A stretch of 63,559 nt of DNA, the filler included, from Sphacelaria rigidula (taxonomy: Eukaryota): the NCBI GenBank assembly GCA_964200075.2. It is 4 parts of 4 records of this genome, joined end to end, with 100 filler letters (N's around TTAATTAATTAA, not from the genome) between each part and the next. Parts side by side here need not be neighbours in the genome. Positions count along the whole stretch, not along the records: positions 15,929 to 31,744 come from CAXNAA020001581.1; 3 more parts are not named here. The stretch is one strand, 5' to 3'. Below are positions 15,829 through 47,755 of this stretch, in pieces. The notes under the pieces are model-generated. The model ran no database searches. It was not told the DNA's origin and was given only the letters and a program-made list of their open reading frames with translations. The first letter of the stretch is position 1. The number at the start of each line of letters is the position of its first letter. The position numbers were made by a program, and so were the translations under genes.

Positions 15829-15928
15829 NNNNNNNNNNNNNNNNNNNNNNNNNNNNNNNNNNNNNNNNNNNNTTAATTAATTAANNNNNNNNNNNNNNNN
15901 NNNNNNNNNNNNNNNNNNNNNNNNNNNN
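15829..15928. other. Artificial contig linker (N run, TTAATTAATTAA, N run)
   Basis: Exactly 100 nt with a six-frame stop cassette, identical in design to the other two linkers. Confidence 0.97.
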
Positions 15929-18467: not shown

Positions 18468-19661
18468 TCAAGGTCCTCTTGTAGCCGTGTTGCTAATCGT
18501 ACCAGGCGCCAGGCCCTTCATTGCCAGAGCTTCCAACGTCTGGCTCACATACTCCAATTTCTCGCTCACATACTCCAACTTCTCGCTCACTTTTTCCAGC
18601 TTCCGGCTCATACTTCTCGATACCTCGTCACCTTCTGTCTTCACTCTCCCCACCTTCCGCTCGATTGCGTGTATTTTCTTATCAACGTGGCCCTTGACCT
18701 CCGCTTCGAGGCGATCTCGAAGAAGCTTAATATGCTCAACGGTTGCCAGTCTATTCAGCTCGTCCTGTCTTACTTCGGGGTCGCTCATGGGATCCTCCAG
18801 AAACCGATGGAGGTCGTTGGCCACCAATCGTAGTTTACCGGGCGCTTCCCTCAGCATGTCGTTTACGCTGACTACCGCTCTAGCACGTGGACTAGATAAG
18901 AAAGATGTAGGGATTGAGTTCCCCCCCCCTCTCCAACCCCAGTAGGTTAAACAAGGTCCCAACGGCCACAGCGCTAGCAAGCAAAAAGGTCCCCCTACAA
19001 GGCACCATACAAGAAGTTGCAGTATCCAGAGCAAGAAAAACAGTGCGCGAGCGAACCATGTTGTCCCGCGTTCGTTTTTCAAGAAGTCCTGGTGCGCCGC
19101 AAAGGGCGAGTACGGCGCGGAGACTACCCACAAAAGAGCTCCCCCAGCAACTGCTACCGGACCCATCACGAGCCAAAATACCACCTGCCCTACCGCTCGC
19201 TTGGCGGTGCTATATGCCTTCCCTTGTCTGCAACCGTCGATGACCATAAATGGTGATGACAGGACTAGCTGCAACAAATTGAAGGGGGCTGGAAGCAAGT
19301 CCTTGTCCACAACCAGCCGGTAATGTTGAATCAACCGTGCTTTCGACACCTTGAATTCTTGCTCAGCGTTTTCCTGGACTTGGGCGTGCGACGTACTCAG
19401 AACCGCGATGAGAAGGTTGAGAAGAACGATGGTGATCACGACCAGATACAACGCGAGCAAAATCGTCGCCACGGTCTCATATGTGTCACCGTCGAATTCG
19501 TCAAACAAGGCAGGGTCGCCGAGCATGGCTTTGAATAGACCGAGCAACGTGTCGCGAAGGGTTCCGTCTTCGAGGGCGAAGAACGACATGGCGAAACCGA
19601 ACATGACCACAAGCATCACGACCCCGAACTGTACGAGTTGCCCGGCCATGCTGAATATTAC
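18468..19661 (-). CDS. TRP channel terminal exon: S5, pore, S6, TRP domain, extra hydrophobic segments, coiled coil
   Basis: Acceptor ttggcag|GTA ATA. Motifs LLNLLIAVL and LPAPFNLL. Stop TGA at 18468-18470. Confidence 0.9.
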   Translation of the reverse strand, partial: VIFSMAGQLVQFGVVMLVVMFGFAMSFFALEDGTLRDTLLGLFKAMLGDPALFDEFDGDTYETVATILLALYLVVITIVLLNLLIAVLSTSHAQVQENAEQEFKVSKARLIQHYRLVVDKDLLPAPFNLLQLVLSSPFMVIDGCRQGKAYSTAKRAVGQVVFWLVMGPVAVAGGALLWVVSAPYSPFAAHQDFLKNERGTTWFARALFFLLWILQLLVWCLVGGPFCLLALWPLGPCLTYWGWRGGGNSIPTSFLSSPRARAVVSVNDMLREAPGKLRLVANDLHRFLEDPMSDPEVRQDELNRLATVEHIKLLRDRLEAEVKGHVDKKIHAIERKVGRVKTEGDEVSRSMSRKLEKVSEKLEYVSEKLEYVSQTLEALAMKGLAPGTISNTATRGP

Positions 19662-22600
19662 CTGCCAAAGCAAGGGTAGAACCGAGGGCACACCGGACAG
19701 TGAGTGGTTCAGAATCTATGATGACAGCGAGGCAGTACATACAGCCAGCCACGCACCTTATTGGAGTCGCACACCAACTCTCGGAACAGGTTAGGCGAGA
19801 TGCGAACTCTCCCAGCAGCAAAACACAAAATCGTCAACGACGGGCCCGTTATCCTTCCCGCAACATTTGCGGGGAATTAAACACGAGAAGTATATTACGA
19901 CCTGGTAGGAGATGACGTACTTACGCGATAGCGCACTAATTCACGTGCAGCCCATGCTGTAGTGACTGGCAGACTAGATACGAGCGAGCAGCAACTAGGG
20001 ATTCTAGCCCGGTGAAAATCACCGCAATCCTGATGGGTGCTTTGACTTCTGTATCATCGGTTGGATTACTCCCCGCCCGTCGCAACTCGTATCAAGAGCT
20101 CTAACCATTGACGTTCCAACGCAGATCTTTGACATCTTGCTTTCCGAATACCTGACACAAAACTTCGCGGGGACCTATTTGGCGACGAAGATGAGGAGTT
20201 TCGCTCCTTTCGTAACACCACAATTGTAGTGGATAAGAAGGACGTCAGCACGGTGTATCTACGAGTGGAGGTTTACATAACGACCTAGGTCATGATGTAA
20301 GTCGTCACGCCACATAGCCTACAAAATCATAGAGAATGGAGTACCGGTTAGGCTTGGTCCTCAAACATTCTTCTATTTCCTCTGTGCCATGGGTGAAGTA
20401 CTTTACGTTAGCACGGGCCCTTAACCGTGCCCGATGTCTTAGACGATGTTTATGTTTTTTTTATCTTTCACGGTTTTTAGTTGAAGCCCTGTTTTTTTGT
20501 TCGCGCATTACCGTGCATGAACCAGCGCCCGAAGAAAAACAATCGGCCAAAAAATGGCGGATTCCGCTCCTATTTCAAAAAATTAAAAGTCAGGCTTCCT
20601 CGCGATCGCTGGAACGTGATGCTAGATAGTCCTAGGACTTAGTGAAGGCCTCCTAACCGTATCTTACCACCCTTTCGAACGTTCGTGCCCTCTGCAGCGC
20701 CGATACCCCCGAAAATTTCAAAATACTCCCGAACGATCCCCAAACTTGGACCCACCCGTTCTCAGTACGACCCAAATCGTTTCCAACGGGCACCTCCATG
20801 AATTTCTCTTTGCAACAAACCTAACAATAGCTTAGTGAGCACCTCCGTTGGGAAATACGATCTGCACCCCATGAAAGACTTCACTTGTTCCACGGAGGCA
20901 CTATTGTCTCTGCAAGCGAATGTTTCGCTGTAGAGATCGTTCAACGAGCTCAATACGTATGTCGGGCGATGGAATCATCAACCATGCAGACAGGACGTAA
21001 TATGAATATGTAAACACGACTGTGGGGTAAGCAGGGACAATCTCAACTCGCCTGGACCATCGGACCCTGAAAGCGGAGCATTTGGGCGAAGAACAGAATC
21101 CGCAAGAACAAAAGCGGGGCACTCATGGCGTACAAGCCACGTCCCCACGGACTCGAACCGTCGAAGACTCGGACCAGGTATCCTCCAAACAAGAGGATGA
21201 GGGCCGCCAGGTCCACAAAGTTCCATACATCTCGTGAGTATGTGTTAATGTCTCTCGTCATCTCTCGCCCCTCAGCGTATCCGGCAGCCTTACGAGATTC
21301 GGGGAACGTATCCCAGGAACGGGCAAACGGCGCGGGAATATTCAGTATTTACTTAGGTCGACGCTCCCAGGAGCGAGCAGAACATACCGTACTTCAGCCG
21401 TGTGGTATGTGGAACATTGTATCGGAACATCAAGGGGTAGATCTCACTACCGTACCTTACATGGCCTACTTGAAAATAAGAGCGGAAGGGAACGACATGA
21501 TGTGATCGATGACGGCTTTGAAAGCCTGCCAGCCGAGGTGGTGATAGAGACTGCACGTGCGCCATGTTACGTGATCAACGGGGAGCTGTGCATGCCCCAT
21601 CACGCACCCATGTAAAGTGCGAGAAGCGAAATTGGCACAGAGAACGCTTGTCGCATCCCTGCCTCGCCACCCTCAAACTCACCGCAATGTAAAGCAGGAA
21701 CAACCACTCCCCCGCGGTCACGGCACCATCAGCGTGGAATAGCACCGCTACGGTGAAGACCGCAAGCATGGCAACGTACACGACGAGGTCCAGCACCATC
21801 CTCATGGCCGGCATGCGGTAGTAGTCGTTAGGCCTGCCAACCAGCCCTGCGGCGATGAACTGTGCCCCCGGAAGAATGGCGAGGCTCCGCTTGTCCTCAT
21901 TCGCCCCCTGCAAGCGCTCAACTAAGAATGCACTGCAATTGAGCTTCTCATGATCGAGAACGAGGCCATCGGTGGTGAGGGTGAGCAACTCGCCGTAGTC
22001 GCCTAGGACACCGTCGGTGTCCCCCAGGTCAGGTAGACTCCACGTGAATCTGCGGGAGAGGAAGTCCATCACCAGCGGCATTGTGCAGAACGTTTCCATT
22101 TGCTTCCGCTCCCGAAGTGCCATGCCCAGAGGTCCGGGTCCCGTAGGGTTCGCCGCTGATCCCTCGGGCTCGAACACAGCGGAAAGCCATCCCATACCAT
22201 CTTCGATACCATCCTGCTTCAGAATTTTGAACAAGAGATCATCGAAGCCACGGACTGTTTGCGGCAGCCGCTCCAGTAATTCGAGCAAGAGAGCATCTAC
22301 GCTATCCTGCAGAAATAGAATATTCCTGCGTTCTCCCTCGGGGGCCTTTCCCGCGGCACCGGCAAGCTTCACCGACAGGGTCATGCCGGGGACGAACGGG
22401 TTTCTGGCCGACGTCACGGCACCCAGGCAGACTTCCTTCAACCATTCGAGCGACTTTTCGCGAGACAGCTCAACAAGAAAGCTGTGCGACGGCCGAGCGC
22501 CATATTCCAGAAGGCTAGATAGTATGTCCTTGGCCGCACGTTTCGTCTCTCTGCGCGGGCGCCGCCTTACCACCCTTTCCGCTTCGGTCCAGACCGACAA

Positions 22601-25600
22601 GCCATCTTCTAACGCCTCCGCTACCTGGTTTCGAGCGGTTTGAAGGAGGGAGGAAAGGCGCAAGTTGCTTCCTCGCGGGAACCATCAGTGCAACGATCTT
22701 ACGTTTCAGAGCTCAAAGTTACGCTACATGATCACGACGGGTGGTATACGAAGCGCCGCCTGGCAGAGACACTGTGAGGCGCCAGCTAAAGGCGAAACTG
22801 AAATCTCATGAGTTTATGAGGCCAACCCCCAAGGCCCGCCATTCTATCACGATCCGAATTCAGAGATTCACCGTGCAAAGGTGAATGGTCGATTGAGAGT
22901 TCAACTAAAAGTGTTGAGCCGTCACACGAAGCTCCAGCTCGAAGGAAGCGTCGCGAAGCTTTGAGATTCAACCTTAATAACGAACATATAGTCTTCGCCT
23001 CGAACGTTTAAATTGACCTTCATGGAGGCTCGCCTTCAAAGTCGGAGATTTTCACCCGATGATTCAGACTTCAAGTTGAAGATTCTAGTAAAGATTAAGT
23101 GTTTCAAAATAAAGTTGCTAGTCTGAAGTCAAATATTTCAAAGTGGGGTTTTGGCTTTTACATCAGACGTTTATTTAGAGCTAAGGTGTTCAGTTGCCCG
23201 CTCAACCTCGCCTTCGAGATCGAAGGTTCAAGGTGAGCCTGGCAAAAAGGTTGAACCCTCAAGCTCATCCTTTCATTCTATTCGAAGCGTCAAGTCGAAG
23301 CACCTACAACCAACTTGAAATATTCAAGCTCGCGGGATTTGATATAAACCTTCCATTTGCACTCGACGAAAGTTCATAATCTTTATTGGAACCTTCACTC
23401 GACCTTCCAAGACGACGCCACAATCAGGTTGAATGTTCAAGACAACCTTGGACTCACGTCGATGCTATCCTAACTTTTGTGAATTCCAATTTTCCCTCAA
23501 GTGAATGAACGTTCAACTTTCAACTTGGATATTCAACTTGAATTCAAAATAACCGCGTTTTTGTTCTCTTCACTTTTCTCCAGGGAATGTTCTCATCGTG
23601 TTCTAGTCTTGGGTACGTCCATCATGCGCCCGCTGCTCACGCCTGGGGGACCAACTAAAGTGCGACAATCAATCAACCTACCAATCAATCAAGCGGTTAC
23701 CCGACAACACCTACCCCGTGGTTCGTCCACGCTGACAGCAGCTAATTTGACGCCCACAGCCGCGCTGCAGTCACACTTTCCTTTCAACATATCAAGGGCA
23801 GAGGGTACAGTGTTCGGAAGGCGCTTGGAACAACCAGAGGACACACGTCTCGGCGGCGGCGCGTTCCAAGCGCTTCGGAGTTGGATGCATACTGCAGTAC
23901 GATACACGTCGCACCTGCTTATCCGCCAAGTGTTCCCGCATGTACGTTTTCATCAGCTTCATACCGATGTTCCATAGATCAACGCTCATGGACTCAATCA
24001 AGATTGACATCAGGGTGCTATCCTGGTTGTTCCTGTGCGGTATCAGCTCGTTTACCTGAGAGCCCATGCACAACAAAATACGGTCGAAATGGGACGGGGA
24101 AAACTTGTGGTCAATCGTGCCTCCGGCGAAGCGCGAGTTTCGTGAAGGCGAAAAGAATATCAATGGAAGAAATAATTATGCTAACGCTTCAGCCTTCTAA
24201 AAGGAACTACCGACAACGACTACCCAACTCAAGGAACGAACTTGTTCGTACCATACCTGCTCGTCGGTGAGCCGTTTTCCACACGCGTCCACAACGGCTT
24301 CGAACGCATCCTTGTTCTCGCCGCTTGCTGCCAATGTCAGTACCGTGTCACCTTTCGATATTGACATCAACATCGTGCTGACCTGGAGGACAGGGACACA
24401 ACATAGAGCCCGGAGAAATGATGGATATTTTCAGCTTTGCCTGATCCGTCATCTATCCCGAAATATGGCGCATCTAAGGTTCTACACCAAAATCAATATA
24501 TTACGAGCAGAGGCACTAGATGCACTAAATCTGGATATCGCGTCTCAGTTCTTGAGAGTTGTGATTTGAAGTTTCGCACGGAGAGTCGCTAGTGTGTCAT
24601 GGTTTGATACTTACCGTCTGAGGGTGTAAGGTGCCAGTTCGTGGGCACCTCGGCCGTCGCGCTCAAACACAGTCAAGTGTATCGATCCATTGAGCTCGAC
24701 TGTATCAAGTGCGGAGTCAACCCAGGTTCGCAGCGTCGGGTTGCATACCCGTGAGCCGCGCAGGCTGCAGGACAACATATGTTGCATGGAGGTCAGGCTT
24801 ACATTGTGAAAAGACCAGAGATCCCTCTGATACCGCAGTTCTTGATGGCGCAGATGCTCTTGCATTATTGGCGTACAGGCTAACTTGTGCTTTGCTAGTT
24901 GAGATGCATAGTTCAAAACGTTGTGACACCTGAGGGAAGACAAATCAAATCTGCCACAAAATGTAGTATGACCCATCAGGTACCAAGCATGACAAAGTAT
25001 GACACATGGAACCTAATCGACTGGGAAATGACCAATAAATCTGTAACAAGTGCATAGTGAAGGAGAAAAAGCACAGGCGCTAAAGCACACGTAGTGCAAG
25101 TGGAAAACCTAGGATATACATCCTACAATTCGTGAACACTCACGTTGAGATCGTTACAACTAATACTCGCATACGCAGAAAAAATACGGACTTTGGACTT
25201 TCAAGAACACGTGGGACGCGCATCAGTCCGATCGGGTTTGTCCTTGGGCGGAGTCCAGACGGTTGGCCACAAGAATCGCCCACTAAGAGCGTGAGCACGT
25301 ACAGTAGGATGTAAAAAAAAAATCGCCGTGAAACCGGGCAGATAATACCCGCATGTCAACCAGAAATCATGCTTCAGTAGTACTAGACATCAGCCGAGTA
25401 GTACAAAGTTACGTTTCATAAAAGGCATTTCTCCATCCGCACAGGAGCGTCTCTATCTTCATCGATGAGTATACAATGTGTCATCGAGTTCGCAGTACTG
25501 TCACACCGAACCTCGTACCCAATGAACCTAGTTCACGGGGTACGCCGTCAGGCTAGGCCGTAGAACGTAAGGGACAAAAGAGGCTTGTGGAGCTCTCGAA

Positions 25601-28600
25601 CTTCACCTCTTCAGGTGTGAGAGCAGCCACGACCGCCTCAAAGGTGTCTTTGCTGTCGCTATCGGCCGCCAACGACAACATTGTGTCCGAAGAGTTCTCC
25701 CGCATCATCGCGTCTTTCAACTGCGAGGGAGCCAGCGTATGAGGAAGAAGGGACACATCTCGCGTTAGGAACGTTCCTCGCGGTTCGACATGACCGCAGA
25801 TTTATTTCACGTTTGACAGCTACACAGAGAGTCGAAAAAATATCCAACTTCCTCCTGTAATACGCGGGCAAGAACCTTCGATATCTACCGACGAGTCATG
25901 CCTGTTCGACCTCAAATACTGCCGTCATGAGAAGAAAAACTGTCGTGATCGCACACTCAGAAGGGCACAGCGTGCACAGCAGAGGTCTGCCGGCGTGTCC
26001 AATGCGGGTGGCGCGCGCGCTTGGGGAATCGATTCCTCAAACAATGCGTGCACAAACCCGCCTGCGGTGATGAGGATCGTCACCTGTTCGGTCGAAATAT
26101 GGTCTCGGAATGCGCTATGTATGGTCTTGAAAACTGCTGCGTTCCCAGTGCTAGCCGCATGCATAAGCAGCGTGTTGCCGTCCCATTCCGTCCACGCCAC
26201 CAGTTCCTGCACCCGGGAGCAACAACAGTAGGAGCAGACGGCTATTTCGCAAGAGCGATACGAACCACGCTTGATTTTGAGCTGCGAGTTTTGTCGAGGT
26301 CGGGTATTTCGGTCCACCGTCGGTTGACCCCCGATCCTGCTGCCACCGTTCACGGAAGACAAAACGCATGGCTGTTGGACGTGCTATGACTAAAATACAG
26401 TGTTGGTCGGCGCCAGTTGCTTCGCCAATCACAACCAGCCGCAATAACCTACAAGCGCGTGTAGCACTTGGACGGTTCACGCCCCAGAGCACAGATAAAC
26501 ACTGTTTTCGTGAGATTGAGAGTAGAGGATACGATTGAGAGTGAAAAGCGGTCGATCAGTGAATGAGTTGTTTCAGTTCCGAAATGCCCCTTCACGAGGT
26601 CCGATATGCTTTCTGTTGTAGCTTGACACTGAGGCCCTTTATATCCCTGAGCAGGATATCGACGTGTAGCTGTAAGCACACGCCAGTGATGCAGGAAAAA
26701 AAAAGCACGCACGGAATGAAAAATTGGCGAAGTTAAAGCGAATGATCGAAGCCACTCTCAATCAACGCTCTACTCTCAATCTCACGAAAACGTCGTTAGA
26801 TGATGCCATAAGGAAGCTCACAGCAGGACTGCTTACAGCAGGACTGCTTTATCAGCCGCAACCCGTCCTACGCAACGGCTCAATAGCCATTTCATCACCC
26901 TATCCCAGGAACAGCGCGCATGTTCTGTCGGAGTCAAGAGCTACGCGTACGTCGATACCGCGCTCTCTAAGTCGTCCCAACGGGTACCAAAGTCGCCTGT
27001 CGTGTGGGGCAACAAATCGTTCGAGAGCGAGCCATACACGCTGTCGAAGCCACGAGCGCTTTCCCTGCGCGACGTAGAACTTTGCGACCACCAAAAATCT
27101 TTCCGTCGCTAAAGCTGTACGATATACATATATATATATATACTGTACGCGCAGTACCTGCCATGTAGTGAAATTCAGGAAATTGAGAACGACGCCCACT
27201 TGATTGGCGTCCATGCTGCTCACAGCTGCAGCCAAGAGCTCCCTCTTGCTTTGTTCTTCCTCTGGAGGAATCCGTCCCTCTAGCTGGCAGCAAGGAGAAA
27301 GATATCGGCACAATCAAGTGAATCTAAGCGAGGGGTACCACTGCAACAGAACGCCGTACTGCTTACTCGTACTTGTACACAATATTTACTCAAATCCTGC
27401 TCGACGAATATACAGACACCCGGGGAAGTTCCACTTGAGAAAGTTCGGCTCACGCGTTGTTCCGTTCGCCGACGGATCGTTGAAGTGACCCGCGTCATTG
27501 TTCGCAATCGGCGCAAACAGTTACGTACACAATATTCTGGCAATACAAACAAGAAAGGGTGGCGCCGTACACTCCGTTGCCGAATAACGACAGACAGAAC
27601 CCAAGCGGAGCTTTCATCGGTGTCGTGTGCACGTCGCTAGAGAGCGCTTACGCGGAAGGGTTGTGGACGCGCACACATTTCATTGCGATGTCGGGCCAAG
27701 AAGTTCGTTCGTTTACTGCGATACTGAGTCCTCAAGCACTTTCATCCGCAAACTAAACATTTATTAACATCAGCTGGGTGGGGATAGTACATCAGTTCGT
27801 TCACCTGGTTGACGGTGAGTCTCTGCCGAGCAGCCTTCAGAACGGCTTCCCAGGTATGAGTACTTCCGCTCAGAGCTGCTCCTCTCAGCACCTCGAAATC
27901 CATCAACATCGGGCTCACCTGACGGCGCCCACGTGCACGAGAAGCAGGGTCTCCGACGTCATGAGTATCGAGCGGTATGCTTCAAACCGTAGCTCTAGGT
28001 TTGATACGGTGTAGTCGGCGCACGCAAGGGTGTATGTGCAACCTTTTATTGGTAATCACGCCACATCGCATGGGACAGACAAGTGATGCTTGGCAACTTC
28101 TAAATGGCAGAGAACTCGTACGTACCTCATCTCGTGTGGCCCGTTCCTTCTCTAGCGCGGACAACACTGCTTCGAAGGTATCGCGGTTTCCAACCCGGGC
28201 TGCCATCGTCAAGATGGTGCGATCGTGGTATGTTTTCAACATCACTCTCGCGACCTGGCATTTCATGCAAGTATATCAAGCAGAAACGAGCAATGATCAG
28301 ATACAGTGTGGATTTTCATTACATCTAATCCACAAGCATGCGGATAATGAACCTCCCCGGCAACAAATGACCGCCAATGGGCAGGCATGTATCGACTGGA
28401 CCACGCACCGAAGCACCAATCGAACGCACAACGTGGGTTCCACCCACAGCTCTGCCTATAGCAGCGCCTGAGAGACCAGTATCGCTGGCGGCGAGGTGAT
28501 GCACGTCGTAGTCAGCTGGATGAACGATACGCTACAGGCAAGGTTGGCCGATAGCTGGAGTTGGTGTGGGGGTGTTTGTGCACAGAAGTGACCGCCGTGG

Positions 28601-30454
28601 GAATATACATCTTGAATATACATCTCGGTCACCTCTTCAGTCGAGAAGTAGTCGTATAAAGTCTTGAGCACGGTATTGAAGACTGTGGCGGTCCCGGTGT
28701 GTACTGCATCCATGAGCAACGTCATGCCACTGACACTCTTCTTCAGCATATTTTGCACCTGGGAGCAGTTGTACAAAACAGGGTAGATACGTGTCTCAGT
28801 GTGCGTCCCTACGAAGACCGAACCGACGCTCATCGTGGCGGCGAGGCTTTTTCAGCCGCGCGTCCGGTCTACGATTATGTATGCTGTACGCTGCCCTATT
28901 GCGCAACCATGTAGTCGGAAGTTCTCGACACTAGTCTGCCCTACGTGAATACCATGTGGTGCGTAAGACTTATACAGTGATTGTGAAATACGCAGCGAAG
29001 AAGGTGCACCGTTCGGACTGGCTGCGCATCCTTCGCGCTGGCCACGAAATGTCATTCAACCACCACATCACCTGTGGCGGCCCGTGATAAAGCGATATCT
29101 AGTCAACAAATCGGGTTCTTTGTTTCCAAAATATAGAAAATTGGCACTTAGAAGTGGGGCTCGGCTCTTTCCGACAGAAATAGACGACAAAAGACAAGAA
29201 GATGGGAGGCCGTGGTATGTGGATAACGGTATGGAAAAGACCGCTCGAGACGATCGTACGGCAAGGCATTGGACATCTTATGAAACAAAACGTCTTTATA
29301 CCCTGGACAATAGATTGCATTTGTCGAGACGTTCATTGCGTCAATATGGAATCTTTTGTCTATTGCAATAGACATTGTAGTCGATACTGTTCATTTTTGT
29401 TTTTTATTTTTATTTGTCGCACTTCGAACCCCTCTCCTTCCTCGGGACGAGTCCGTGGTCTCAAGGGGTCAACCCTTCTTTCCCCGGTACTGTACACTGT
29501 ACATTTTTATCAATGCAATATATTGTCATTTTCAAGCCGCGGTTCGCTACTGGCTGATTGTTGTACATTGATCTACCCCTGGGGAATCGAGCAGTGATAA
29601 CGAGATAGACATCCTCAAGGTGGGGACAGAAACTCTCGCTAGTAGGGAATTCGAAAAAGGAAGAGAATGAAGAAAGCAAGATGGAACGAGGCAAACTAGA
29701 AAAGGAAAGCTCACTGTACGAAAGATACCTCTTCTCGCTCGAGATTAACCGCAAGAGCAGCCAACACCGTCTTGAACGAGTCTTGCAACATACGGCGAGC
29801 AACTGTCCACATCTCATGACCTTCGTCGTCCTCCGAAACGATCGTCTTCGTGAAGTTGGCGTTACCGCGGGTTGCGATTGTCAATATTGTGGAACCTTCC
29901 TCGTCCTCAGATACCATCATATTCCTGAACTGGACGTTCGCGTAAAGCAAAAACGGTAAATACACACATGTATAGAGTGAGGGCGTGACTGTATCAGCAT
30001 GCGTTTCCCCACCGTTTGCACGTCTGACAACGAATAAATCTCAGGGTGGGCCGGCTACGACGACTGCAAATGGCTGCGGGAAAAAATAGCCCTGCCTGGA
30101 CTCCAACCCCTAACCCCAGTTGTAGCATGGGTATGGGTACCCCTGAAGTCAGCGAAGAGCATAAAATAGTGTGTATGTTGAGATGTACATATGCAGTGTA
30201 ATGCTCAGCTGGCGGTTGAGATTTGTGTAATACACACGTGCGCTCTGGAAAATCCCTATCCCGGGACAACGAATGTTGTGCTACGGGATGCCGTCGAGAC
30301 CGCTCGCATCGACGTAGGCCTGTACCTTTGTTGTGGGGAGGTAGTCCCGTAACACCCCGAGGATAGCCTTGAAAACCTCAGCGCTACATCTCTCTACTGC
30401 GTGCATCAGCAGTGTTCTCGTTCGCCAGTCCACCTCGACCATCATCTGCTCCAC
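18468..30454 (-). CDS. TRP-family cation channel with N-terminal ankyrin-like repeat array; 13 exons, 5'-incomplete
   Basis: All exons splice in phase 0 into one open frame: 10 repeat exons, a linker plus S1-S2 exon, an S3-S4 exon (WNFVD..LRILFFAQMLRFQGPMVQ), and an S5-pore-S6 exon (LFKAMLGD, LLNLLIAVLSTS) followed by TRP-domain-like EFKVSKARLI..LLPAPFNLL. Confidence 0.88.
21052..21288 (-). CDS. TRP channel exon (end of S2, S3, S4, S4-S5 linker)
   Basis: 79 codons, AAGYAEGREM..YSRDVWNFVDL..GPMVQ. Acceptor taag| and non-canonical donor cag|gcgagt. Confidence 0.82.
21683..22624 (-). CDS. TRP channel exon (pre-S1 linker, S1, S2)
   Basis: 314 codons. Acceptor accag| and donor gcg|gtgagt. Ends in hydrophobic helices (MRMVLDLVVYVAMLAVFTVAVL; EWLFLLYIA). 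Confidence 0.85.
22840..23560. repeat. Intronic element dense in TTCAA/TTGAA motifs
   Basis: High density of ttcaa(c)/(g)ttgaa words in both orientations. Non-coding. Confidence 0.45.
23915..24055 (-). CDS. TRP channel repeat exon 10 (47 aa, VNELIPHRNNQDSTLMSILIES...LADKQ)
   Basis: cag|GTA acceptor and CAG|gtgcga donor. Phase 0-0. Confidence 0.68.
24257..24382 (-). CDS. TRP channel repeat exon 9 (VSTMLMSISKGDTVLTLAASGENKDAFEAVVDACGKRLTDEQ)
   Basis: Manually translated, 126 nt, ccag|...|gtatgg. Ankyrin-like GDTxLxxAA motif. Confidence 0.8.
25607..25720 (-). CDS. TRP channel repeat exon 8 (LKDAMMRENSSDTMLSLAADSDSKDTFEAVVAALTPEE)
   Basis: 114 nt, gcag|...|gtgaag. Confidence 0.78.
26084..26206 (-). 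CDS. TRP channel repeat exon 7 (ELVAWTEWDGNTLLMHAASTGNAAVFKTIHSAFRDHISTEQ)
   Basis: 123 nt, gtgcag|...|gtgacg. Clear ankyrin-like DGNTLLMHAA. Confidence 0.8.
26499..26797. mobile_element. MITE with about 30-bp TIRs; second copy at 45921-46222
   Basis: ttttcgtgagattgagagtagag / ctctactctcaatctcacgaaaa. The internal sequence matches 45921-46222 in inverted orientation. Confidence 0.8.
27158..27283 (-). CDS. TRP channel repeat exon 6 (LEGRIPPEEEQSKRELLAAAVSSMDANQVGVVLNFLNFTTWQ)
   Basis: 126 nt, gccag|...|gtactg. Degenerate repeat. Confidence 0.68.
27805..27918 (-). CDS. TRP channel repeat exon 5 (VSPMLMDFEVLRGAALSGSTHTWEAVLKAARQRLTVNQ)
   Basis: Manually translated, 114 nt, gtcag|...|gtgaac. 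Confidence 0.72.
28126..28254 (-). CDS. TRP channel repeat exon 4 (VARVMLKTYHDRTILTMAARVGNRDTFEAVLSALEKERATRDE)
   Basis: 129 nt, gccag|...|gtacgt. Confidence 0.8.
28633..28758 (-). CDS. TRP channel repeat exon 3 (VQNMLKKSVSGMTLLMDAVHTGTATVFNTVLKTLYDYFSTEE)
   Basis: 126 nt, cccag|...|gtgacc. Confidence 0.8.
29729..29929 (-). CDS. TRP channel repeat exon 2 (67 aa, with internal partial duplication)
   Basis: 201 nt, tccag|...|gtatct. FRNMMVSEDEEGSTILTIATRG..IVSEDDEG..DSFKTVLAALAVNLEREE. Confidence 0.75.
30326..30454 (-). CDS. TRP channel repeat exon 1 (VEQMMVEVDWRTRTLLMHAVERCSAEVFKAILGVLRDYLPTTK)
   Basis: Manually translated, 129 nt, gctag|...|gtacag. Confidence 0.8.
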
Positions 30455-30816
30455 CTAGCGGGAAAGGTAACAATAAAGAAACGCACTTTCTTCAGCTGTC
30501 AACGATGTTTGTTAGCGCACGAGAAAGGTGCCTCGGGCAGCACGACGCAGAATGTACAAGCGACCGCAAGATAGCAACTCAGATGAGGGATGTTGCCGCA
30601 AATTGAAGAAAACAATACACAACACGACTAATGCCGCGATAGCCCCCCACCTACCCACCTAAAAAAGTGGAACGGTGCTCCGTCTCGAAAGGGATGCGTG
30701 CTCCACGGTCAAATGACGAAGGCAAGCAATGAATGAGCACGCCCCTCAGAACAGGCTGGTTTGAGGATTCAAAGTCCACTTGTAAATCAAAATGACAAAA
30801 TCCGAGCACACCGAGC

Positions 30817-31168
30817 GCCGGTCGCCCCGGTGGCTCAGTTGGTAACCTCGAAACCTCCTCAAGGTTGGGTCGTGGGTTCAAACCTCGGAGCGATCCGGGA
30901 TTTCTTCTCACGCCATGCCCAACAGTGGAGAGGGACTACGTCGTCGTGGGTACACAAAATTCGACTTTACGGTCGACGAGAGAAAGGAAGTGATGAGCCC
31001 CTCTCGCGATAAAAAATAAAAGGCAAGCACCACAGAAGGAAGGTAGAGATCTAAAACAAATAAAAAAGAAGAGAAACTCCTGTATTGGCCTTCCTCCTGC
31101 GTGACCCAGGCTGATGCGCCCACATATACCGAAAGGTGTAGACCGGCGTCCAGAATAGATGGGACGGC

Positions 31169-31213
<45 letters not shown>
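30817..31213 (+). mobile_element. tRNA-headed SINE, copy 3, with TSD
   Basis: A-box TGGCTCAGTTGG, B-box GGTTCAAACC, (CA)n tail. 10-bp direct repeat CACACCGAGC at 30807-30816 and 31214-31223. Confidence 0.85.
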
Positions 31214-31744
31214 CACACCGAGCAGCTGGGCTTGAGATCGTTTTTTCGCCAGTATCGTCCATACGAGAGGCTTCATGCCGTCTAAAACCAGCTGTTATGC
31301 GCCGTATGATAATTTTCTTTGTGACAGTTACGGGGCTGGCGAAGCCGGGACGAAACACGTCGGATTTTCGCCGGACCAGGCTCGCACTCAATCACCAAGT
31401 GCGGAATACCGTGGTGTGTTCGGCGAGTCGCATGAAGGGTGAGCTGATTTTCTGCTAAGATTGTTCGGCCCGAAGCCAACTGGTTATCTTGCATACGGAT
31501 GACAGCCTACAATGACTTGCTTTATTATCTGGTATCGCCACTTCCAGAGACAGCCACGGCTTTTACACTGCCTGATTGGGGCCTCACCATGTAAACATTA
31601 CGTAGTACGATCACCCCCTTTGTGCGGAGTCGAGGTTCTCCCACGTCGCACAACATGATCTAGCTCGACCACCATCATGGCTACCGCAAAACAAAACGCA
31701 AGCACGCAGAACAAATCGGTAACCTGGTTGCCTAACTTACGCAG

Positions 31745-31844
31745 NNNNNNNNNNNNNNNNNNNNNNNNNNNNNNNNNNNNNNNNNNNNTTAATTAATTAA
31801 NNNNNNNNNNNNNNNNNNNNNNNNNNNNNNNNNNNNNNNNNNNN
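31745..31844. other. Artificial contig linker
   Basis: 100 nt of N, TTAATTAATTAA, N. Confidence 0.97.
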
Positions 31845-34059
31845 AGGGGGAAAACGATGTATATACTGGAAGATAGATGGTGGCCAGAGACGGCGAAACA
31901 GGACGGGGATAAGATATGTAAAAGCTTTTTGGTGTAATGTATGGAAGAAACGTAATGAGCTGCTGAAGAAACGTAATGAGCGTCGGAGTGTTGGAGGTGT
32001 CTCTGTTAGGAGTAGGAACGGTGCTCGGTCTCGCAAGGGATGCGTGGTCAATGGTCACACGACTAAGGCAAGCAACAAATGAGTACGCCCCCTACCCCCT
32101 GGGCATATGACTACCGCATGCCAGGTCATGAGTGCACCCTTTCCCCTGGAAACAAGTCCGCAGCCTCAGGAGATCGACCCTCTCTTTCTCGGTACTGGGA
32201 GTGATACATCGTTGGGCATCAGATGCGCAGGCCGTCGGCTTCCATAAAAATATTTGCACCGACTCCCGAATTCACGTCTCTGGATGATGGAAATAAAAAC
32301 AGTACCCTGCGGTCGGGGTGCGAGACAATGGATTCGGCCCAAATTGGCATCGATGGACCAGCTTGACCCTAGAAGCTCAAAGCTTGTTGTTTCCATCTGT
32401 CGTTAAACTCTGAGCACTCCCTCCTTACGCGGCAAGAGTCCATGGTCTCCAGTGATGAACACATTTCTCCCCCGGTGCGTTCCTGACACCCTCCTGACAA
32501 GCATGGGATTAGCACTCCCTCACCCTGTTACCCTTTGTCGGATGTTTATCATGCTCACTCGCGTCTTCACACGCGCGGGTGACGGAGACCAATGGAAAGG
32601 GTGAATACTGCTGGGATTCTAGCTGGGAAAATCCACTTTAAGTGGTCGACGATGAAACCGTTTTGACCGCTGCGGGGCGGAAACTGCGGAGTTCATCCGT
32701 TAGATTTTCAGCCAAGGTGCAAAAATCAATCGATCGAATCAATTTTATTTGATACTGAAAATGTGCCGTTGATAACTACCCCCCCTCCTTCTCCCCCGTT
32801 CATTCGTCTATTGAGATGTATCGTCGCGACCCGCTGAGATAGATCTACCGCGTCGTAAAGGTGGTCAAGCATAGAGAGGTTGTTAAGAATCTGATCCTGC
32901 ATGATAGATGATGACCCTCTGACTCTTGCGCGTTTAAGGATCTTTAGTCCAAGAGTGTAGGCACGTATAAAGAAACCAAAGTCACGGGTGTGCACAGTCA
33001 GTGGCACAGATACATGGACACAAAACACGGATACAGTGTCTTCTTCGCAATTCGTGAAGAGGTCGAACGTCGCCCATTCCTGCGTTGCAGTGGACGTGTG
33101 CATGTGTGCGTATTGTGCGTGATGCTGACAGAACCAGGATCCGTGGTCGGTTCGCCTTCAAATTGATGTCAACGCATCCAGTGTTCGCAGAGTGAACGAC
33201 CCACCTAGTTTCATGAGCGAAGAGGAGTACTGTACGCTTCGGTGCGTGTATGAAGGGTCACGGAATGGAAGATCTTGGTGAATTTACGTCCCATCCTTCC
33301 CTCGCTTCACGTTGCACCCGTTGGAACAGGCCGGAGGTGGGGACGCGGCAGACGACCTCTCCGATATGAGTGCATCGGACACTCCGTCTGATCTCCTGGA
33401 TGAAGAAGAGAATTACGAAGATGATGACGTGAGCCTTTCAGACATAATTTCTGCATTTTACGAGAAAACTTAGTCACTCCCTAGATAGCGTTATTGCTGA
33501 GTATTTTTCTTGGGTGTGTATGATGAAGAATGTTCAACTGCTGCAGCACTGTTCGCCTGTGGAGCCTGAGGACAAGATACTGCATAATAACCAGCACATG
33601 TGGAAATGGACACCACTTGAACGTGGCGTTCAATCGACTAAAAAACAAATTATCGCCCGTTTACCCTCGCGAAGTGGATGGCTAGGCGTTTTTGTCGAAT
33701 CAGTAGCTTGGTAAAACCAGTGCCCAACTCAGACACGCAAGATGCACCGGAGTATGCAGCAACAATGATTTTAACTCTCAGTAGTTGTTGCAAATATGAT
33801 TCAGGGGGAAATGCTTGAGCGTAGTTTCAAATATTTCAGAGCGAATACAGCATGATGTTGTACGGTGGAGAATTCCTCCCAGCTCTAACATTCTTAACCC
33901 GTTCCCCGGGACATTTTATTCGGGTCGTTGCTGCGGACTGACTCCTACATACCAAACCGTACTGATCAGACCCAGTAAATATTCCTTGCATGGAAGACGA
34001 GAAGGAAAGAAGGGCCAGAAAAAAGAAGGACGGCTGTAGCTAAAGCTGCAGGTTGAGCT

Positions 34060-35715
34060 TAGGTCCCATGCTGGGAAAAGCTTATTATAAGGGCGTGCAC
34101 CATTCATACATTATCTTCCACGAGACAGAACGGGGCTGGTGCGGCTGTCGAGTTGGTACTGACAGGTTGCGGCATAATCGGACATCAGGATACATGTAGA
34201 CAAGGCACAACGGACTTCGCTCGCCTCCCGCTGCGGGGCGGAATGGAGCAAGGGAGGGACTGGACAATATGGGGTTGGGTTGGCGGTCAAGGCGTCACCC
34301 ATCAGCAAAACAGCGTAGCTAAAGGAGGCGTTCATCAGCGAGCACCCCATGTTGATAACTTTCAACCCAACTGGTGCGAAAATGTCTATCGAAATTAACC
34401 GCCGCATCAGCGCTGCGCGGGCACGTCTCCGGGTATGAACTCCCCAACTCTGCGATCGACCCAACGCCCGGTTATCCTTGAAAGTCCGGCTGCTTAAAGC
34501 GGAGGTGGTGGAAGCTCTGTTGCACGGATGTGCCACATGAATATTATATTCTGAGGACTTCGACAGTCTGCGCACTGCCCATCACAAGCTTTTGCTGCTA
34601 GTGTTGGATTCCGCGGGAAATATCGGAATGACTCGAAGACTCTTTCGTGCTCGAGATGACCAACTGCGAACGTATCGAGACGAGTATCTGCGAACGTCAA
34701 CTCTGCTTCGCGGGAGCCCTTGCTCGGCAGAAGGAAACACGTCTTCCCGAAAGCATCATGAGCGGACGGTTGACCACACGAGGGCCGATGGAGGCCGGCC
34801 GCCCCTCCCAAACGATGAGGGGAGAACCTCCAGGGGAACCTACGTGCACCAGGGGCTGTTTCGCACGGAGGAGCGAGACGGAAATGATTCGTCTACGGTG
34901 CAGGGGTCAACGATGCATACGGTTGGGTCACTGCGGCGAGAAACATGGGCATATGGCATCTTGGAGTCGAAATAGGAGCGGAAGAGTTTGAGGACACGTT
35001 GGCGCCGCGAAGACAAGAACGAAAATCGGGCCGCCGTCACAAACGAGAGGCTGCTGCGTCGAGGGCCGCCAATCGAAGAACCCTGTCTGCCCCTATCCGT
35101 TGTTGATCGCCTATTGTTGATTGCTGATTGCTTATTGTGTCCTTGGTCGGTGGTTCTGCGGTGCCCTCTGGTGTGTGTCTGTATGTGCTTTGCTGCCCTG
35201 AATTATTTCGGCTTCACAACTGCTGCAGTCTCCTTCTCTGCTCTCCCTTCCCTACGTTTTGTCTTCTAACCCTTCCCTATGTGTTCGTTGCTGCCGGTGT
35301 ATGCCAGAGCAGTTTGGTGCCTCGCTTCTGCAGGGTCCATCGCTGAGAGGTTTCAAACTCCAAAAATAAGGTCGTACTAGACGCGTGAGGCACAGTCTTC
35401 TCCCACGGCCTTTGGTTTTCTACCGTTGGATATGAGTGCGGTTTTAGCGTAAGATCTTTTCCGCTGAAGCCATGAGGCAGAGGCCGGTCATTTCTATTTT
35501 TCTCTTTTTTTTTCCCGTTGTTTTATGTTGTTGTTTCTTTCTTCTTCCTAGTCTAGTCTGTTGGTCTGTTCTACCTTTTCTGCTTTTTTCTTCTTTAGTT
35601 TCCTTCAGCGAGTGTCATAGTCTAGTTTTGTCTCGGTTCGTCCACCTTGTGGATAATGAGCACGACTGGATCATGACTCCTCGGGGGATCAGCAAAAGTA
35701 CGGCATTCAATCATA
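34060..35715 (+). mobile_element. 5'-truncated, decayed RTE-like LINE (post-RT region, 3' UTR and tail)
   Basis: Frameshifted translation EINRRISAARA..DRPNARLSLKVRLLKAEVVEALLHGCAT, a T-rich UTR, and a tail shared with 13690-13775 and 23610-23692. Confidence 0.75.
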
Positions 35716-35719
35716 CACA

Positions 35720-42960: not shown

Positions 42961-43533
42961 ATTATCTTCGAGGGGGAAGATACTCGCGGACGGCCGTCCC
43001 CGGGAGATATCGTGCGCATGCACTACACCTGCTCCCTTCCCGCGGCCGCTGATTCCGGCCCCGCCGCTGAACGTGCCGCCGCCGCCGCTGCATTGCGAGG
43101 GCACAAGACCACTCCCGTCGCTGGCGTCGTCGCTGGCGACGCCGCCGCAGGTGGCCAGGGTACAGTGGTCGAAAATTCCAGGAAAAACCGTCGGCGACCG
43201 TTAGAGTTCGTGGTAGGCGAGAAGCAGGTAGTGAAGGGGATAGATAGAGTAATCATGACCATGCTGTACGGGGAAAGGGCCAAGGTGACAGTCACTGCGG
43301 GGTATGCTTACGGAGACAAGGGGTACCCGCCAATTGTCCCACCGCGGTCGCCGTTGGTGTTCGATTTGAATTTGTTGAACTTTTGGCCGAGGCCGCGATG
43401 GCAGAAACCGCTCGTGCAGGTTTTGTCGGAGCCTTACAGGGAGGTTCCGTACGCTCGGCGTGAGCCGGTGGCCGAAATAGTTGAAGAGGATTCCGTTGCC
43501 GCAGATGTGCCTTATGGGAAGTGGCGAAAGTGA
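42961..43533 (+). CDS. FKBP-type peptidyl-prolyl isomerase domain protein, terminal exon (upstream exon not identified)
   Basis: Acceptor catcag|. PGDIVRMHYT..PLEFVVGEKQVVKG..GERAKVTVTAGYAYGDKGYPPIVPPRSPLVFDLNLL matches the FKBP_C fold signature. Stop TGA. Confidence 0.88.
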   Translation: MIFEGEDTRGRPSPGDIVRMHYTCSLPAAADSGPAAERAAAAAALRGHKTTPVAGVVAGDAAAGGQGTVVENSRKNRRRPLEFVVGEKQVVKGIDRVIMTMLYGERAKVTVTAGYAYGDKGYPPIVPPRSPLVFDLNLLNFWPRPRWQKPLVQVLSEPYREVPYARREPVAEIVEEDSVAADVPYGKWRK

Positions 43534-47655: not shown

Positions 47656-47755
47656 NNNNNNNNNNNNNNNNNNNNNNNNNNNNNNNNNNNNNNNNNNNNT
47701 TAATTAATTAANNNNNNNNNNNNNNNNNNNNNNNNNNNNNNNNNNNNNNNNNNNN
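47656..47755. other. Artificial contig linker
   Basis: 100 nt of N, TTAATTAATTAA, N. Confidence 0.97.

What the first reader, a model, noticed from the sequence alone, without database searches (positions are those of the whole stretch)
23915..30454. TRP channel whose N-terminus is an array of single-repeat, phase-0 exon cassettes: a candidate exon-shuffling sensor-channel system
Seen in the sequence: ten consecutive exons (129, 201, 126, 129, 114, 126, 123, 114, 126 and 141 nt) are all multiples of 3 with phase-0 introns on both sides. Each encodes one repeat with consensus roughly V..M.....G.TLL..AA..G....FEAVL..L....T.EQ, longer than a canonical 33-aa ankyrin repeat and very variable before the TLL motif. 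Any exon can be skipped, duplicated or swapped without a frameshift. Established: Ectocarpus ROCO-LRR and NB-ARC-TPR families use one-repeat-per-exon shuffling and are proposed immune receptors. Inference: this may be a further family of that kind, in which a variable recognition array is wired directly to a cation pore.
Basis: partly seen in the sequence, partly recalled or inferred. Interest (0 to 1): 0.85.

Follow-up and report, generated by a model that had tools for sequence, protein, structure and literature searches.

The report
Brown-algal ankyrin-repeat TRP channel gene
This is an expressed brown-algal TRP cation-channel gene whose inner N-terminal arm is built of ten old, diverged ankyrin-type repeats, each on its own in-frame exon; the layout is real, but nothing here shows the exons being actively shuffled as in the alga's proposed immune receptors.

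Summary
On the minus strand, ten exons of 129, 201, 126, 129, 114, 126, 123, 114, 126 and 141 nt have AG/GT borders and phase 0. Spliced transcript contigs from three samples join them to the channel exons. 999 nt lie between exon 2 and exon 11, which is exactly the sum of exons 3-10.

The repeats are divergent 38-47-aa ankyrin repeats. The C-terminal part is a TRP-superfamily channel. The family is confined to brown algae among named hits, and an Ectocarpus member is already annotated "Ankyrin Repeat Transient Receptor Potential Channel". Published genome surveys report that brown-algal TRPs are massively expanded.

The exon-shuffling reading is not supported for this gene:
- The exons are about 31% identical and unequal in length, with no nucleotide similarity between exons or introns.
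- There are no intronic or antisense pseudo-repeats.
- All 12 mapped introns are phase 0, including the two in the channel part.
- Ectocarpales orthologues keep repeat number and order at 11 of 11 positions.

Best reading: an ordinary new member of a known ANK-TRP family whose array arose by ancient exon duplication.

The parts
30326..30454 (-). Repeat exon 1 (129 nt, phase 0-0), ankyrin-type repeat of type A (TLLMHA)
   Evidence: AG/GT borders and open frame. Family profile score 34.2. Depth 1.81 in bin 29934-30392 equals 12.4 x 67/459. Weak Pfam Ank_3, E 0.11.
29729..29929 (-). Repeat exon 2 (201 nt): one repeat plus an internal partial duplication
   Evidence: Borders. Listed as a piece of the spliced contigs, record 977-1179. 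The internal direct repeat 29938-29894 against 29863-29819 is 78% identical over 45 nt. By my reading this explains the extra 75 nt.
28633..28758 (-). Repeat exon 3 (126 nt)
   Evidence: score 30.7. Depth 3.40 against 3.40 expected.
28126..28254 (-). Repeat exon 4 (129 nt), type B
   Evidence: score 35.6. Depth 3.48 against 3.48 expected.
27805..27918 (-). Repeat exon 5 (114 nt)
   Evidence: score 23.4. Depth 3.02 against 3.08 expected.
27158..27283 (-). Repeat exon 6 (126 nt), the most diverged repeat
   Evidence: score 11.6. Depth 2.80 against 2.81 expected.
26084..26206 (-). Repeat exon 7 (123 nt), type A, closest to the canonical ankyrin motif
   Evidence: score 36.8. Pfam Ank_3 / Ank / Ank_5 at E about 0.02, below cut-off. 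Its best outside matches are the first repeats of P0002, P0003 and P0004.
25607..25720 (-). Repeat exon 8 (114 nt), type B
   Evidence: score 33.2.
24257..24382 (-). Repeat exon 9 (126 nt), type B
   Evidence: score 39.8. Bin 23967-24425 has depth 5.74 against 5.81 expected for exon 9 plus part of exon 10.
23915..24055 (-). Repeat exon 10 (141 nt), a diverged last repeat
   Evidence: score 14.6.
21683..22624 (-). Exon 11 (942 nt, phase 0-0): the family-specific pre-S1 linker domain and the first transmembrane helices
   Evidence: Contig piece 22622-21682. Borders fixed by the open-frame test. 68% identical to Sphacelaria rigidula P0001. 205 50%-identity clusters match it at E <= 0.001.
21052..21288 (-). 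Exon 12 (237 nt, phase 0-0), transmembrane segment; its donor is GC, not GT
   Evidence: Contig piece 21287-21051. Weak Ion_trans / PKD_channel.
18468..19661 (-). Exon 13 coding part: S5, pore, S6, TRP-helix-like EFKVSKARL segment and C-terminal coiled-coil-like tail, including the stop codon
   Evidence: Pfam Ion_trans 27.1 bits (cut-off 25) and YVC1_C E 7e-4. Contig pieces 19660-19401 and 19415-18000. Open frame.

Best explanation
A transcribed gene for a subunit of a brown-algal TRP-superfamily cation channel of the family already annotated in Ectocarpus as 'Ankyrin Repeat Transient Receptor Potential Channel'.

Layout. An N-terminal part was not located. Ten diverged ankyrin-type repeats of 38-47 aa follow (one of them, at 67 aa, carries a half-repeat insert). 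Then come a family-specific pre-S1 linker domain, six transmembrane helices with a pore loop, a TRP-helix-like segment just after S6, and a coiled-coil-like tail.

How it most likely works (inferred from solved TRP channels). Four subunits form a non-selective, Ca2+-permeable pore. The ankyrin solenoid lies in the cytosol and acts as the binding, tethering or regulatory arm that passes a stimulus through the linker domain and TRP helix to the gate, as in NOMPC, TRPA1 and crTRP1. The stimulus is unknown.

Gene structure. Each repeat period is one symmetrical phase-0 exon because the array grew by duplication of an exon together with its intron. The copies are now old (about 31% identity, unequal lengths), so in this gene the array is a fixed structure and not an actively shuffled one.

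Shown: the exons, the splicing, the ankyrin and TRP homology, and the age of the copies. Inferred: topology, tetramer, ion permeation and the role of the array.

Ankyrin nature of the repeats:
- The profile of the ten exon peptides against PDB sequences gives 14 chains at E < 0.01. Eleven are named DARPin, designed ankyrin, FEM1B or Kidins220. Two are engineered proteins, OR264 and OR266; the printed OR264 alignment shows the ankyrin consensus. One (Z4 c3ii) I cannot classify. The best hit is 4gpm at E 2.7e-6.
- Homologues reach Pfam Ank_2 at up to 69.5 bits against a cut-off of 27.3.
- The AlphaFold model of homologue P0008 has pLDDT 70-90 over most of the repeats. Its best Foldseek matches are NOMPC (E 1.7e-7), a DARPin, ankyrin-1, Drosophila TRPA1 and AnkB.

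TRP nature of the channel:
- Ion_trans scores above its cut-off on the window's own ORF.
- Orthologue P0001 hits Inactive (E 1.7e-15), YVC1 (4e-14), TRPM, TRPC6, TRPC3 and a 'TRP-like ion channel' (6pw4).

Family:
- All 23 of 23 hits come from brown-algal or unnamed eukprot sources, and 13 of the 23 carry precomputed Ank domains.
- P0027 is CBJ29682.1, named 'Ankyrin Repeat Transient Receptor Potential Channel [Ectocarpus siliculosus]'.

Against: - No single exon peptide reaches a Pfam ankyrin cut-off (best 15.9 bits against 22.3).
- The repeat is 38-47 aa. In the model of a homologue it has a third helix that canonical ankyrin repeats lack.
- The model is of a Scytosiphon homologue, not of this protein, and was built from only 25 sequences.
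- The first roughly 847 nt of the transcript, and so the true N-terminus, were not located.
- No orthologue carrying its array was found for this particular gene. The Sphacelaria orthologue sits on a 7-kb contig and starts at exon 11. Stability of this array across species is therefore inferred from a paralogous clade.
- The family does vary in repeat count: 0 to 14 detected in the 36 proteins of 640 aa or more. One subfamily (P0005, P0018, P0023) has a younger two-repeat superunit, with units a median 54% identical in P0005.
Confidence: 0.85

Rival explanations
1. The ANK-TRP genes form a third brown-algal family in which single-repeat exons are actively shuffled, duplicated or swapped (or somatically recombined) to make a variable recognition array. 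Here that array would be wired directly to a cation pore, giving an immune-type sensor channel.
For: - The gene has one repeat per symmetrical phase-0 exon.
- The loop before the T-L-L motif is the least conserved part of the repeat.
- TRP channels are reported as massively expanded in some brown algae (passages of bioRxiv 10.1101/2024.02.19.579948; 51 in Sargassum fusiforme, PMC11085791).
- Repeat counts differ among family members.
- One subfamily shows a younger internal amplification.
Against: - Exon lengths are unequal (114-201 nt), whereas the published genome screen relied on exon pairs of identical length.
- Mean peptide identity is about 31%, with no nucleotide similarity between exons or flanking introns.
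- There are no extra, decayed or antisense repeat copies anywhere in the 63.5-kb window.
- Orthologues in Scytosiphon and Ectocarpus keep all 11 repeats in order, with positional scores of 85-136 against 42-85 within the protein.
- A variable loop is normal for any ankyrin array (general knowledge).
- The transcript contigs of two samples carry the full set of exons in one contig, and those of the third carry it in two overlapping contigs. Contigs cannot show rare isoforms.
Confidence: 0.07
2. The genomic array is fixed, but the symmetrical exons are used for regulated exon skipping. One gene would then give channels with arms of different length.
For: Any of the ten exons can be left out without a frameshift. 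In run X2 the transcript contig breaks inside exon 2 (records 7 and 11), which could be a variant or only an assembly break.
Against: No skipped form was seen. X1 and X3 each give one full contig of 3616 or 3617 nt. The tool itself says contigs drop rare variants, so this was not really tested.
Confidence: 0.12
3. The repeat is not an ankyrin repeat in the structural sense. It would be a separate three-helix, roughly 43-aa solenoid class (armadillo-like in period) that only keeps an ankyrin-like motif.
For: The model of P0008 shows three helices per period, of about 7, 14 and 9 residues. The period is about 43 aa. A few HEAT/ARM-type solenoids (CAND1, tubulin cofactor D, Gea2) appear low in the Foldseek list.
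Against: Sequence-profile hits are ankyrin proteins almost without exception. Pfam calls Ank families in the homologues. The top Foldseek matches are ankyrin arrays. The extra helix rests on a medium-confidence model of a homologue.
Confidence: 0.1
4. The exons are a prediction artefact or a dead gene.
For: None was found. The 5' end could not be located.
Against: Spliced contigs in three samples carry all the exons joined to the channel exons. The frame is open for 1233 codons.
Confidence: 0.01

Closest known systems
Ectocarpus siliculosus CBJ29682.1, 'Ankyrin Repeat Transient Receptor Potential Channel' (P0027), and its Scytosiphon and Ectocarpus orthologues (P0002, P0004)
   Same: They share the pre-S1 linker domain (44-57% identity), the channel core, the roughly 43-aa repeat with the same consensus and period, and a similar repeat count of 10-11.
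   Different: They are paralogues, not orthologues. The window's repeats do not match theirs position by position (scores 33-76). Their exon structure could not be examined because no DNA of relatives was within reach.
NOMPC (TRPN) and TRPA1 of animals
   Same: Both have a TRP pore with a long N-terminal ankyrin array. They are the best structural matches to the model of homologue P0008 (5vkq E 1.7e-7, 7ykr E 4.3e-6).
   Different: No sequence affinity to these subfamilies in particular: the best sequence hits are Inactive, YVC1, TRPM and TRPC. The repeats are about 43 aa, not 33, with a predicted third helix. There are 10 repeats against 29 in NOMPC (recalled) or the 17 named in the title of the TRPA1 entry. 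The linker domain is restricted to the brown-algal family.
Chlamydomonas crTRP1 (6pw4)
   Same: It is the only solved algal TRP channel. It has an N-terminal ankyrin domain and hits the orthologue P0001 at E 4.3e-9. Passages of PMC6744473 were read.
   Different: It has four canonical ankyrin repeats that dip into the membrane, comes from a green alga, and has a different cytosolic architecture.
Ectocarpus ROCO-LRR and NB-ARC-TPR genes (Zambounis et al. 2012, PMC3341825)
   Same: One repeat per phase-0 exon, in brown algae.
   Different: In those genes the exons are of identical length (72 nt for LRR), pseudo-repeats lie in the introns and on the antisense strand, and recent paralogues differ in repeat number. 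None of these was found here. The output domain here is a channel, not a GTPase or NB-ARC. The LRR-kinases in the same paper are the closer analogy: one repeat per exon with no sign of shuffling.

Membership tests
TRP channel superfamily | Six-transmembrane ion-transport core with a pore loop between S5 and S6 | tested here: met
   Pfam Ion_trans scores 27.1 bits (cut-off 25) on window ORF 19715-18471. PKD_channel and YVC1_C are weak. Homologues reach Ion_trans up to 66 bits.
TRP channel superfamily | Sequence homology to solved TRP channels across S5-S6 and the helix after S6 (TRP helix) | tested here: met
   Orthologue P0001 gives 168 PDB sequences at E <= 0.01. The 60 listed include TRPV-type Inactive, YVC1, TRPM1/2/3/5/8, TRPC3/6 and 6pw4. 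The printed alignment runs through LLNLLIAVLSTSH...EREFKVSKARL against LLNMLIAMMGNTY...EKEWMKQWAKI. The window encodes EQEFKVSKARLIQHYRL.
TRP channel superfamily | Tetrameric cation-conducting pore | not testable with these tools
   Needs expression and electrophysiology or cryo-EM.
A metazoan TRP subfamily (TRPN, TRPA, TRPV, TRPC, TRPM) | Clear best affinity to one subfamily | tested here: not met
   The top hits are spread over TRPV-type, TRPY, TRPM and TRPC at similar E-values, 1e-15 to 1e-11. The pre-S1 domain finds only the brown-algal family.
Ankyrin repeat | Sequence signature (G-x-T-P-L-H-x-A-A-x-x-G, then a second helix) | tested here: met
   The profile of the ten exons hits ankyrin proteins in PDB, best E 2.7e-6, aligned over profile positions 8-34. 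Single exons stay below the Pfam cut-offs. Homologues are above them.
Ankyrin repeat | 33-residue period, two helices plus a hairpin | tested here: not met
   Exon peptides are 38-47 aa (67 for exon 2). The family period is about 43. The model of a homologue shows a third helix in place of most of the hairpin.
Ankyrin repeat | Stacked solenoid fold | tested here: inconclusive
   The model of homologue P0008 best matches NOMPC, DARPins, ankyrin-1, TRPA1 and AnkB at probability 1.00, but TM-scores are low at 0.1-0.4.
Brown-algal exon-shuffling receptor genes (as defined in PMC3341825) | One repeat per exon, phase 0 on both sides | tested here: met
   Ten of ten repeat exons.
Brown-algal exon-shuffling receptor genes (as defined in PMC3341825) | Successive exons of identical length | tested here: not met
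   The lengths are 129, 201, 126, 129, 114, 126, 123, 114, 126 and 141 nt, and no two neighbours are equal. The criterion is from section 17.
Brown-algal exon-shuffling receptor genes (as defined in PMC3341825) | Closely related non-coding, inactivated or antisense repeat copies in the introns | tested here: not met
   The six-frame, stop-tolerant profile scan of the whole window gives 10 hits, all of them the exons, and the next best score is -3.3. The criterion is from section 15.
Brown-algal exon-shuffling receptor genes (as defined in PMC3341825) | Recent duplicates or recombined repeat domains between paralogues | tested here: inconclusive
   Not seen within this gene. An Ectocarpales orthologue group is collinear at 11 of 11 repeats. 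Paralogues in this genome could not be examined because no genome is held.
Brown-algal exon-shuffling receptor genes (as defined in PMC3341825) | Diversifying selection on the repeats | not tested
   No coding DNA of orthologues was available.

The most novel reading that the evidence does not exclude
The expanded brown-algal ANK-TRP family as a whole, though not visibly this gene, uses its one-repeat-per-exon, all-phase-0 layout to gain, lose or skip repeats. That would give a diversified set of cytosolic ankyrin sensors that open a Ca2+-permeable pore directly. It would be a brown-algal parallel to plant NLR resistosomes that act as calcium channels (that parallel is recalled, not from a call).
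Probability: 0.06. Interest if true: 0.75.

Novelty: new member of a known kind. Interest (0 to 1): 0.3.

Why it matters
The report gives a validated 13-exon model, supported by transcript contigs, for an unannotated member of the large brown-algal ANK-TRP family. It shows that the family's repeat is a long-period (about 43 aa) ankyrin variant.

The strict one-repeat-per-exon layout is a clean record of how the array grew. I found no mention of it for TRP genes: the brown-algal genome paper and the diatom Ca2+-channel paper hold no occurrence of 'ankyrin', and three literature searches turned up nothing.

The result also sets a boundary on the exon-shuffling idea. The layout alone is not evidence of shuffling, and this locus lacks the published hallmarks.

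If the family-wide version of the idea were true, it would link repeat-array diversification directly to calcium signalling in brown algae.

Tried and rejected
1. The idea that the introns are decayed repeat units (intron gain by tandem duplication, or intronisation of whole repeats). tblastn alignments seemed to run past exon ends. I scored the first and last 11 in-frame intron codons against the family profile and compared them with 4951 interior intron windows. There was no enrichment: mean -17.75 against -18.67 (P = 0.35) at 5' ends, and -16.89 against -16.84 (P = 0.51) at 3' ends. The lowest single P was 0.005 among 21 ends. Rejected.

2. An ancient four-repeat block duplication (3-6 against 7-10). 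Offset 4 has the highest mean score, 41.8, but permutation gives P = 0.07. Not established.

3. The 5' end. Relaxed tblastn with all 23 homologues, reading minus-strand ORFs from 31845 to 37500, and both profile scans found no N-terminal exon or further repeat upstream of 30454.

4. DNA of relatives, to compare intron positions. No genome is held. The metagenome scan with the linker-domain alignment matched 205 patterns, but none was confirmed.

5. Orthologues carrying the array. A word-index search with the exon profile returned only the window's own ORF, P0167. The tool calls this weak evidence.

6. Sequencing runs. No listed holder is on record as RNA. The four 'RNA?' runs are a guess by the tool, and I treat three of them as cDNA only because their contigs lack the introns.

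8. A self-BLASTP for internal repeats returned nothing usable. It was replaced by a period count.

9. Pfam on 15 other long ORFs of the window found only one FKBP domain.

10. ARAGORN found no tRNA.
Full report
**What is there.** The feature lies on the minus strand.

| Exon | Coordinates | Length (nt) |
|---|---|---|
| 1 | 30454-30326 | 129 |
| 2 | 29929-29729 | 201 |
| 3 | 28758-28633 | 126 |
| 4 | 28254-28126 | 129 |
| 5 | 27918-27805 | 114 |
| 6 | 27283-27158 | 126 |
| 7 | 26206-26084 | 123 |
| 8 | 25720-25607 | 114 |
| 9 | 24382-24257 | 126 |
| 10 | 24055-23915 | 141 |

Each exon has a pyrimidine-rich acceptor ending in AG and a GT donor, and all are in phase 0 on both sides. Introns are 201-1224 nt within the array and 1290 nt to the next exon.

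Downstream, tblastn with homologues and an open-frame test fix three further exons: 22624-21683 (942 nt), 21288-21052 (237 nt, with a GC donor) and 19661-18468 (to the stop). This gives 1233 codons from exon 1 onward. These two extra introns are phase 0 as well, so 12 of 12 mapped introns are phase 0.

**Is it expressed and spliced as read?** One search for public runs found eight holders. Four are listed as 'RNA?' (a guess) and hold 0.23-0.24 of the sampled words of a 9-kb stretch. By my arithmetic the exon share of that stretch is about 0.25.

- X1 record 2 (3616 nt) and X3 record 13 (3617 nt) place exon 2 at record positions 977-1179 and 22622-21682 at 2179-3119. They continue into 21287-21051 and 19660-19401.
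- After allowing for the two letters that fit either side of each joint, 999 nt lie between exon 2 and exon 11. That is exactly 126+129+114+126+123+114+126+141.
- The short exon pieces were not among the rows shown. However, X1 depth in seven bins equals 12.4 x (exon nt in the bin)/459. Examples are 3.48 against 3.48, 3.40 against 3.40, 2.81 against 2.80 and 1.81 against 1.81.
- The DNA run X5 is contiguous across the introns (for example 19401-24515 and 26770-29386).

So the ten exons and the channel exons are one mRNA in three samples. About 847 nt of the contig lie upstream of exon 1, and I could not place them. Contigs cannot show rare isoforms, so exon skipping remains untested.

**What the repeats are.**
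- Single exon peptides give only sub-threshold ankyrin hits in Pfam. Exon 7 gives Ank_3, Ank and Ank_5 at E about 0.02, and exon 1 gives Ank_3 at E 0.11.
- A profile of the ten peptides (A1) searched against PDB sequences finds 36 chains at E <= 10 and 14 at E < 0.01.
- Of those 14, eleven are named DARPin, designed ankyrin, FEM1B or Kidins220. That the last two are ankyrin proteins is my own knowledge. Two are engineered proteins, OR264 and OR266, and the printed OR264 alignment shows the ankyrin consensus. One I cannot classify.
- The match covers profile positions 8-34. The remaining 16 or so positions are the extra length over a 33-aa repeat.
- Family members carry Pfam Ank_2 at up to 69.5 bits against a cut-off of 27.3.

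A profile iterated over the family gives the 43-position consensus vkelltskdgfGrTlLtaAasSGsvdmFeaVLaalkehLtdeE.

An AlphaFold model of the Scytosiphon homologue P0008 was built from a 25-sequence alignment. Mean pLDDT is 66.5, with 70-90 over most of the repeats. It shows three helices per period (about 7, 14 and 9 residues), and the exon border would fall inside the third helix. Its best Foldseek matches are NOMPC (E 1.7e-7), a DARPin, ankyrin-1, Drosophila TRPA1 and AnkB.

I read the repeat as a long-period ankyrin variant. The third helix rests on a medium-confidence model of a homologue.

**What the channel is.**
- The window's last ORF passes the Pfam Ion_trans cut-off (27.1 against 25), with weak YVC1_C and PKD_channel.
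- The closest relative is Sphacelaria rigidula P0001, 68% identical over exon 11. It matches 168 PDB sequences at E <= 0.01.
- Those are led by Inactive (1.7e-15), YVC1 (4e-14), TRPM1/2/3, TRPC6/3 and a 'TRP-like ion channel' 6pw4 (4.3e-9). The printed alignment runs through S6 and the helix after it.
- No metazoan subfamily stands out.

**The family.**
- The exon-11 ORF finds 23 longer proteins: 1 Sphacelaria, 8 Scytosiphon, 7 Ectocarpus spp., 1 Pylaiella and 6 unnamed eukprot. Of the 23, 13 carry precomputed Ank domains.
- An exhaustive HMMER search finds 205 clusters at E <= 0.001 and 77 at E <= 1e-30. The best hit is 69% identical, so the window's own protein is not in that library.
- Ten cluster look-ups name Ectocarpus, Discosporangium, Cladosiphon, Nemacystus and Hapterophycus. 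One of them, CBJ29682.1, is named 'Ankyrin Repeat Transient Receptor Potential Channel [Ectocarpus siliculosus]'.
- PMC11085791 gives 51 TRP channels for Sargassum fusiforme.

The protein class and its expansion are therefore known.

**Is it an exon-shuffling system?** I read the abstract and sections 15 and 17 of Zambounis et al. (PMC3341825). Their evidence was:
- repeat exons of identical length;
- closely related inactivated or antisense repeat copies in the introns;
- recently duplicated genes with different repeat numbers.

They also note LRR-kinases with one repeat per exon and no sign of shuffling. Their genome-wide screen kept only successive phase-0 exons of identical length. By that filter a locus like this one would not have been kept.

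Results here:
- The exon lengths all differ from their neighbours.
- Exon peptides average about 31% identity, and a sensitive self-BLASTN of the gene finds no similarity between exons or introns. It finds only a 45-nt direct repeat inside exon 2 (78%), which accounts for that exon's extra 75 nt, and a 40-nt inverted repeat in intron 6.
- A stop-tolerant six-frame scan of the whole 63.5-kb window with the family profile gives exactly ten hits, all of them the exons. The next score is -3.3.
- The window's repeats score 33-76 against any other repeat. They fall into two loose types (1, 3, 7 and 4, 8, 9).
- In the Scytosiphon P0002 / Ectocarpus P0004 / P0027 / eukprot P0003 group, each of the 11 repeats of P0002 has its positional counterpart as best hit. 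Scores are 85-136 against 42-85 within the protein.

On the other side:
- Detected repeat counts among the 36 family proteins of 640 aa or more range from 0 to 14. Sixteen proteins have five or more and seven have none. Many of these gene models are partial.
- The P0005 / P0018 / P0023 subfamily has an 83-85-aa two-repeat superunit. Its copies in P0005 are a median 54% identical, which is younger but still not recent.

**Conclusion.** Every repeat border carries a phase-0 intron at the same place in the repeat. That is best explained by growth of the array through duplication of an exon with its intron. This is a historical statement, and nothing in this gene indicates ongoing shuffling.

The gene is a new, transcript-supported member of the known brown-algal ANK-TRP family. 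By analogy with solved TRP channels, the array should be cytosolic and act as the regulatory or tethering arm of a tetrameric cation channel. The stimulus is unknown.

What remains open:
- the true N-terminus;
- the exon structure and copy variation of paralogues in this and other brown algae;
- selection on the repeats;
- alternative splicing.

Three literature searches and the passages read gave no description of the exon layout of these genes. The supplementary tables that might list them were closed.

Noticed in passing
window 29819-29938 (inside exon 2): Exon 2 contains a direct repeat, 29938-29894 against 29863-29819, 78% identical over 45 nt. It duplicates the first half of the repeat (MMVSEDEEGST.. 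/ TIVSEDDEGHE..). This partial within-exon duplication accounts for the odd 201-nt length.
   Followed up: partly
window 21050-21051 (donor of the intron after exon 12): The only border set that keeps the frame open and fits the transcript contigs gives this intron a GC donor (CAG|gcgagt) instead of GT.
   Followed up: partly
window 26306-26362 (intron 6, just upstream of exon 7, same frame): The read-through peptide LSSVNGGSRIGGQPTVDRN resembles the L-T-G-C-Y-G-G-x-R-G-x-P-P-R-x-D-x-N-G motif that precedes the first repeat in the Ectocarpales homologues. The tblastn E-value is only 0.16, mostly carried by exon 7. Exon 7 is also the best match of those homologues' first repeat. This may be a relic of an older gene start, or it may be chance.
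   Followed up: no
window 26504-26543 and 26753-26791; also 24426-25343, 29016-29474 and 30393-31744: Intron 6 holds a 40-nt inverted repeat pair (90%) about 290 nt apart, like a small terminal-inverted-repeat element. These stretches reach contig depths of 10^3 to 10^6 in all runs, so several introns and the upstream region carry high-copy repeats.
   Followed up: no
window 30817-30890: A tRNA-like stretch (..ggtggctcagttggtaa..gggttcaaacctc..) sits in the high-copy region upstream of exon 1. ARAGORN calls no tRNA in the window, so it may be a tRNA-derived repeat.
   Followed up: partly
window 15829-15928, 31745-31844, 47656-47755 and 7192-7201: Three N blocks have the same shape (44 N, 12 bases, 44 N) and lie about 15.9 kb apart, plus one 10-N run. 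The regular spacing looks like masking rather than assembly gaps.
   Followed up: no
window 42826-43533 (+): This ORF carries an FKBP-type peptidyl-prolyl isomerase domain (FKBP_C, E 5.5e-20). It was the only Pfam hit among 15 other long ORFs tested.
   Followed up: no
window 31170-31211: An (AC)21 microsatellite.
   Followed up: no
P0005 (Scytosiphon promiscuus, 1907 aa), residues about 150-1106: This paralogue has an 83-aa period (two repeats per unit) with units a median 54% identical. P0018 and P0023 share the 84-85-aa period. The subfamily's array was amplified more recently than the one in the window.
   Followed up: partly
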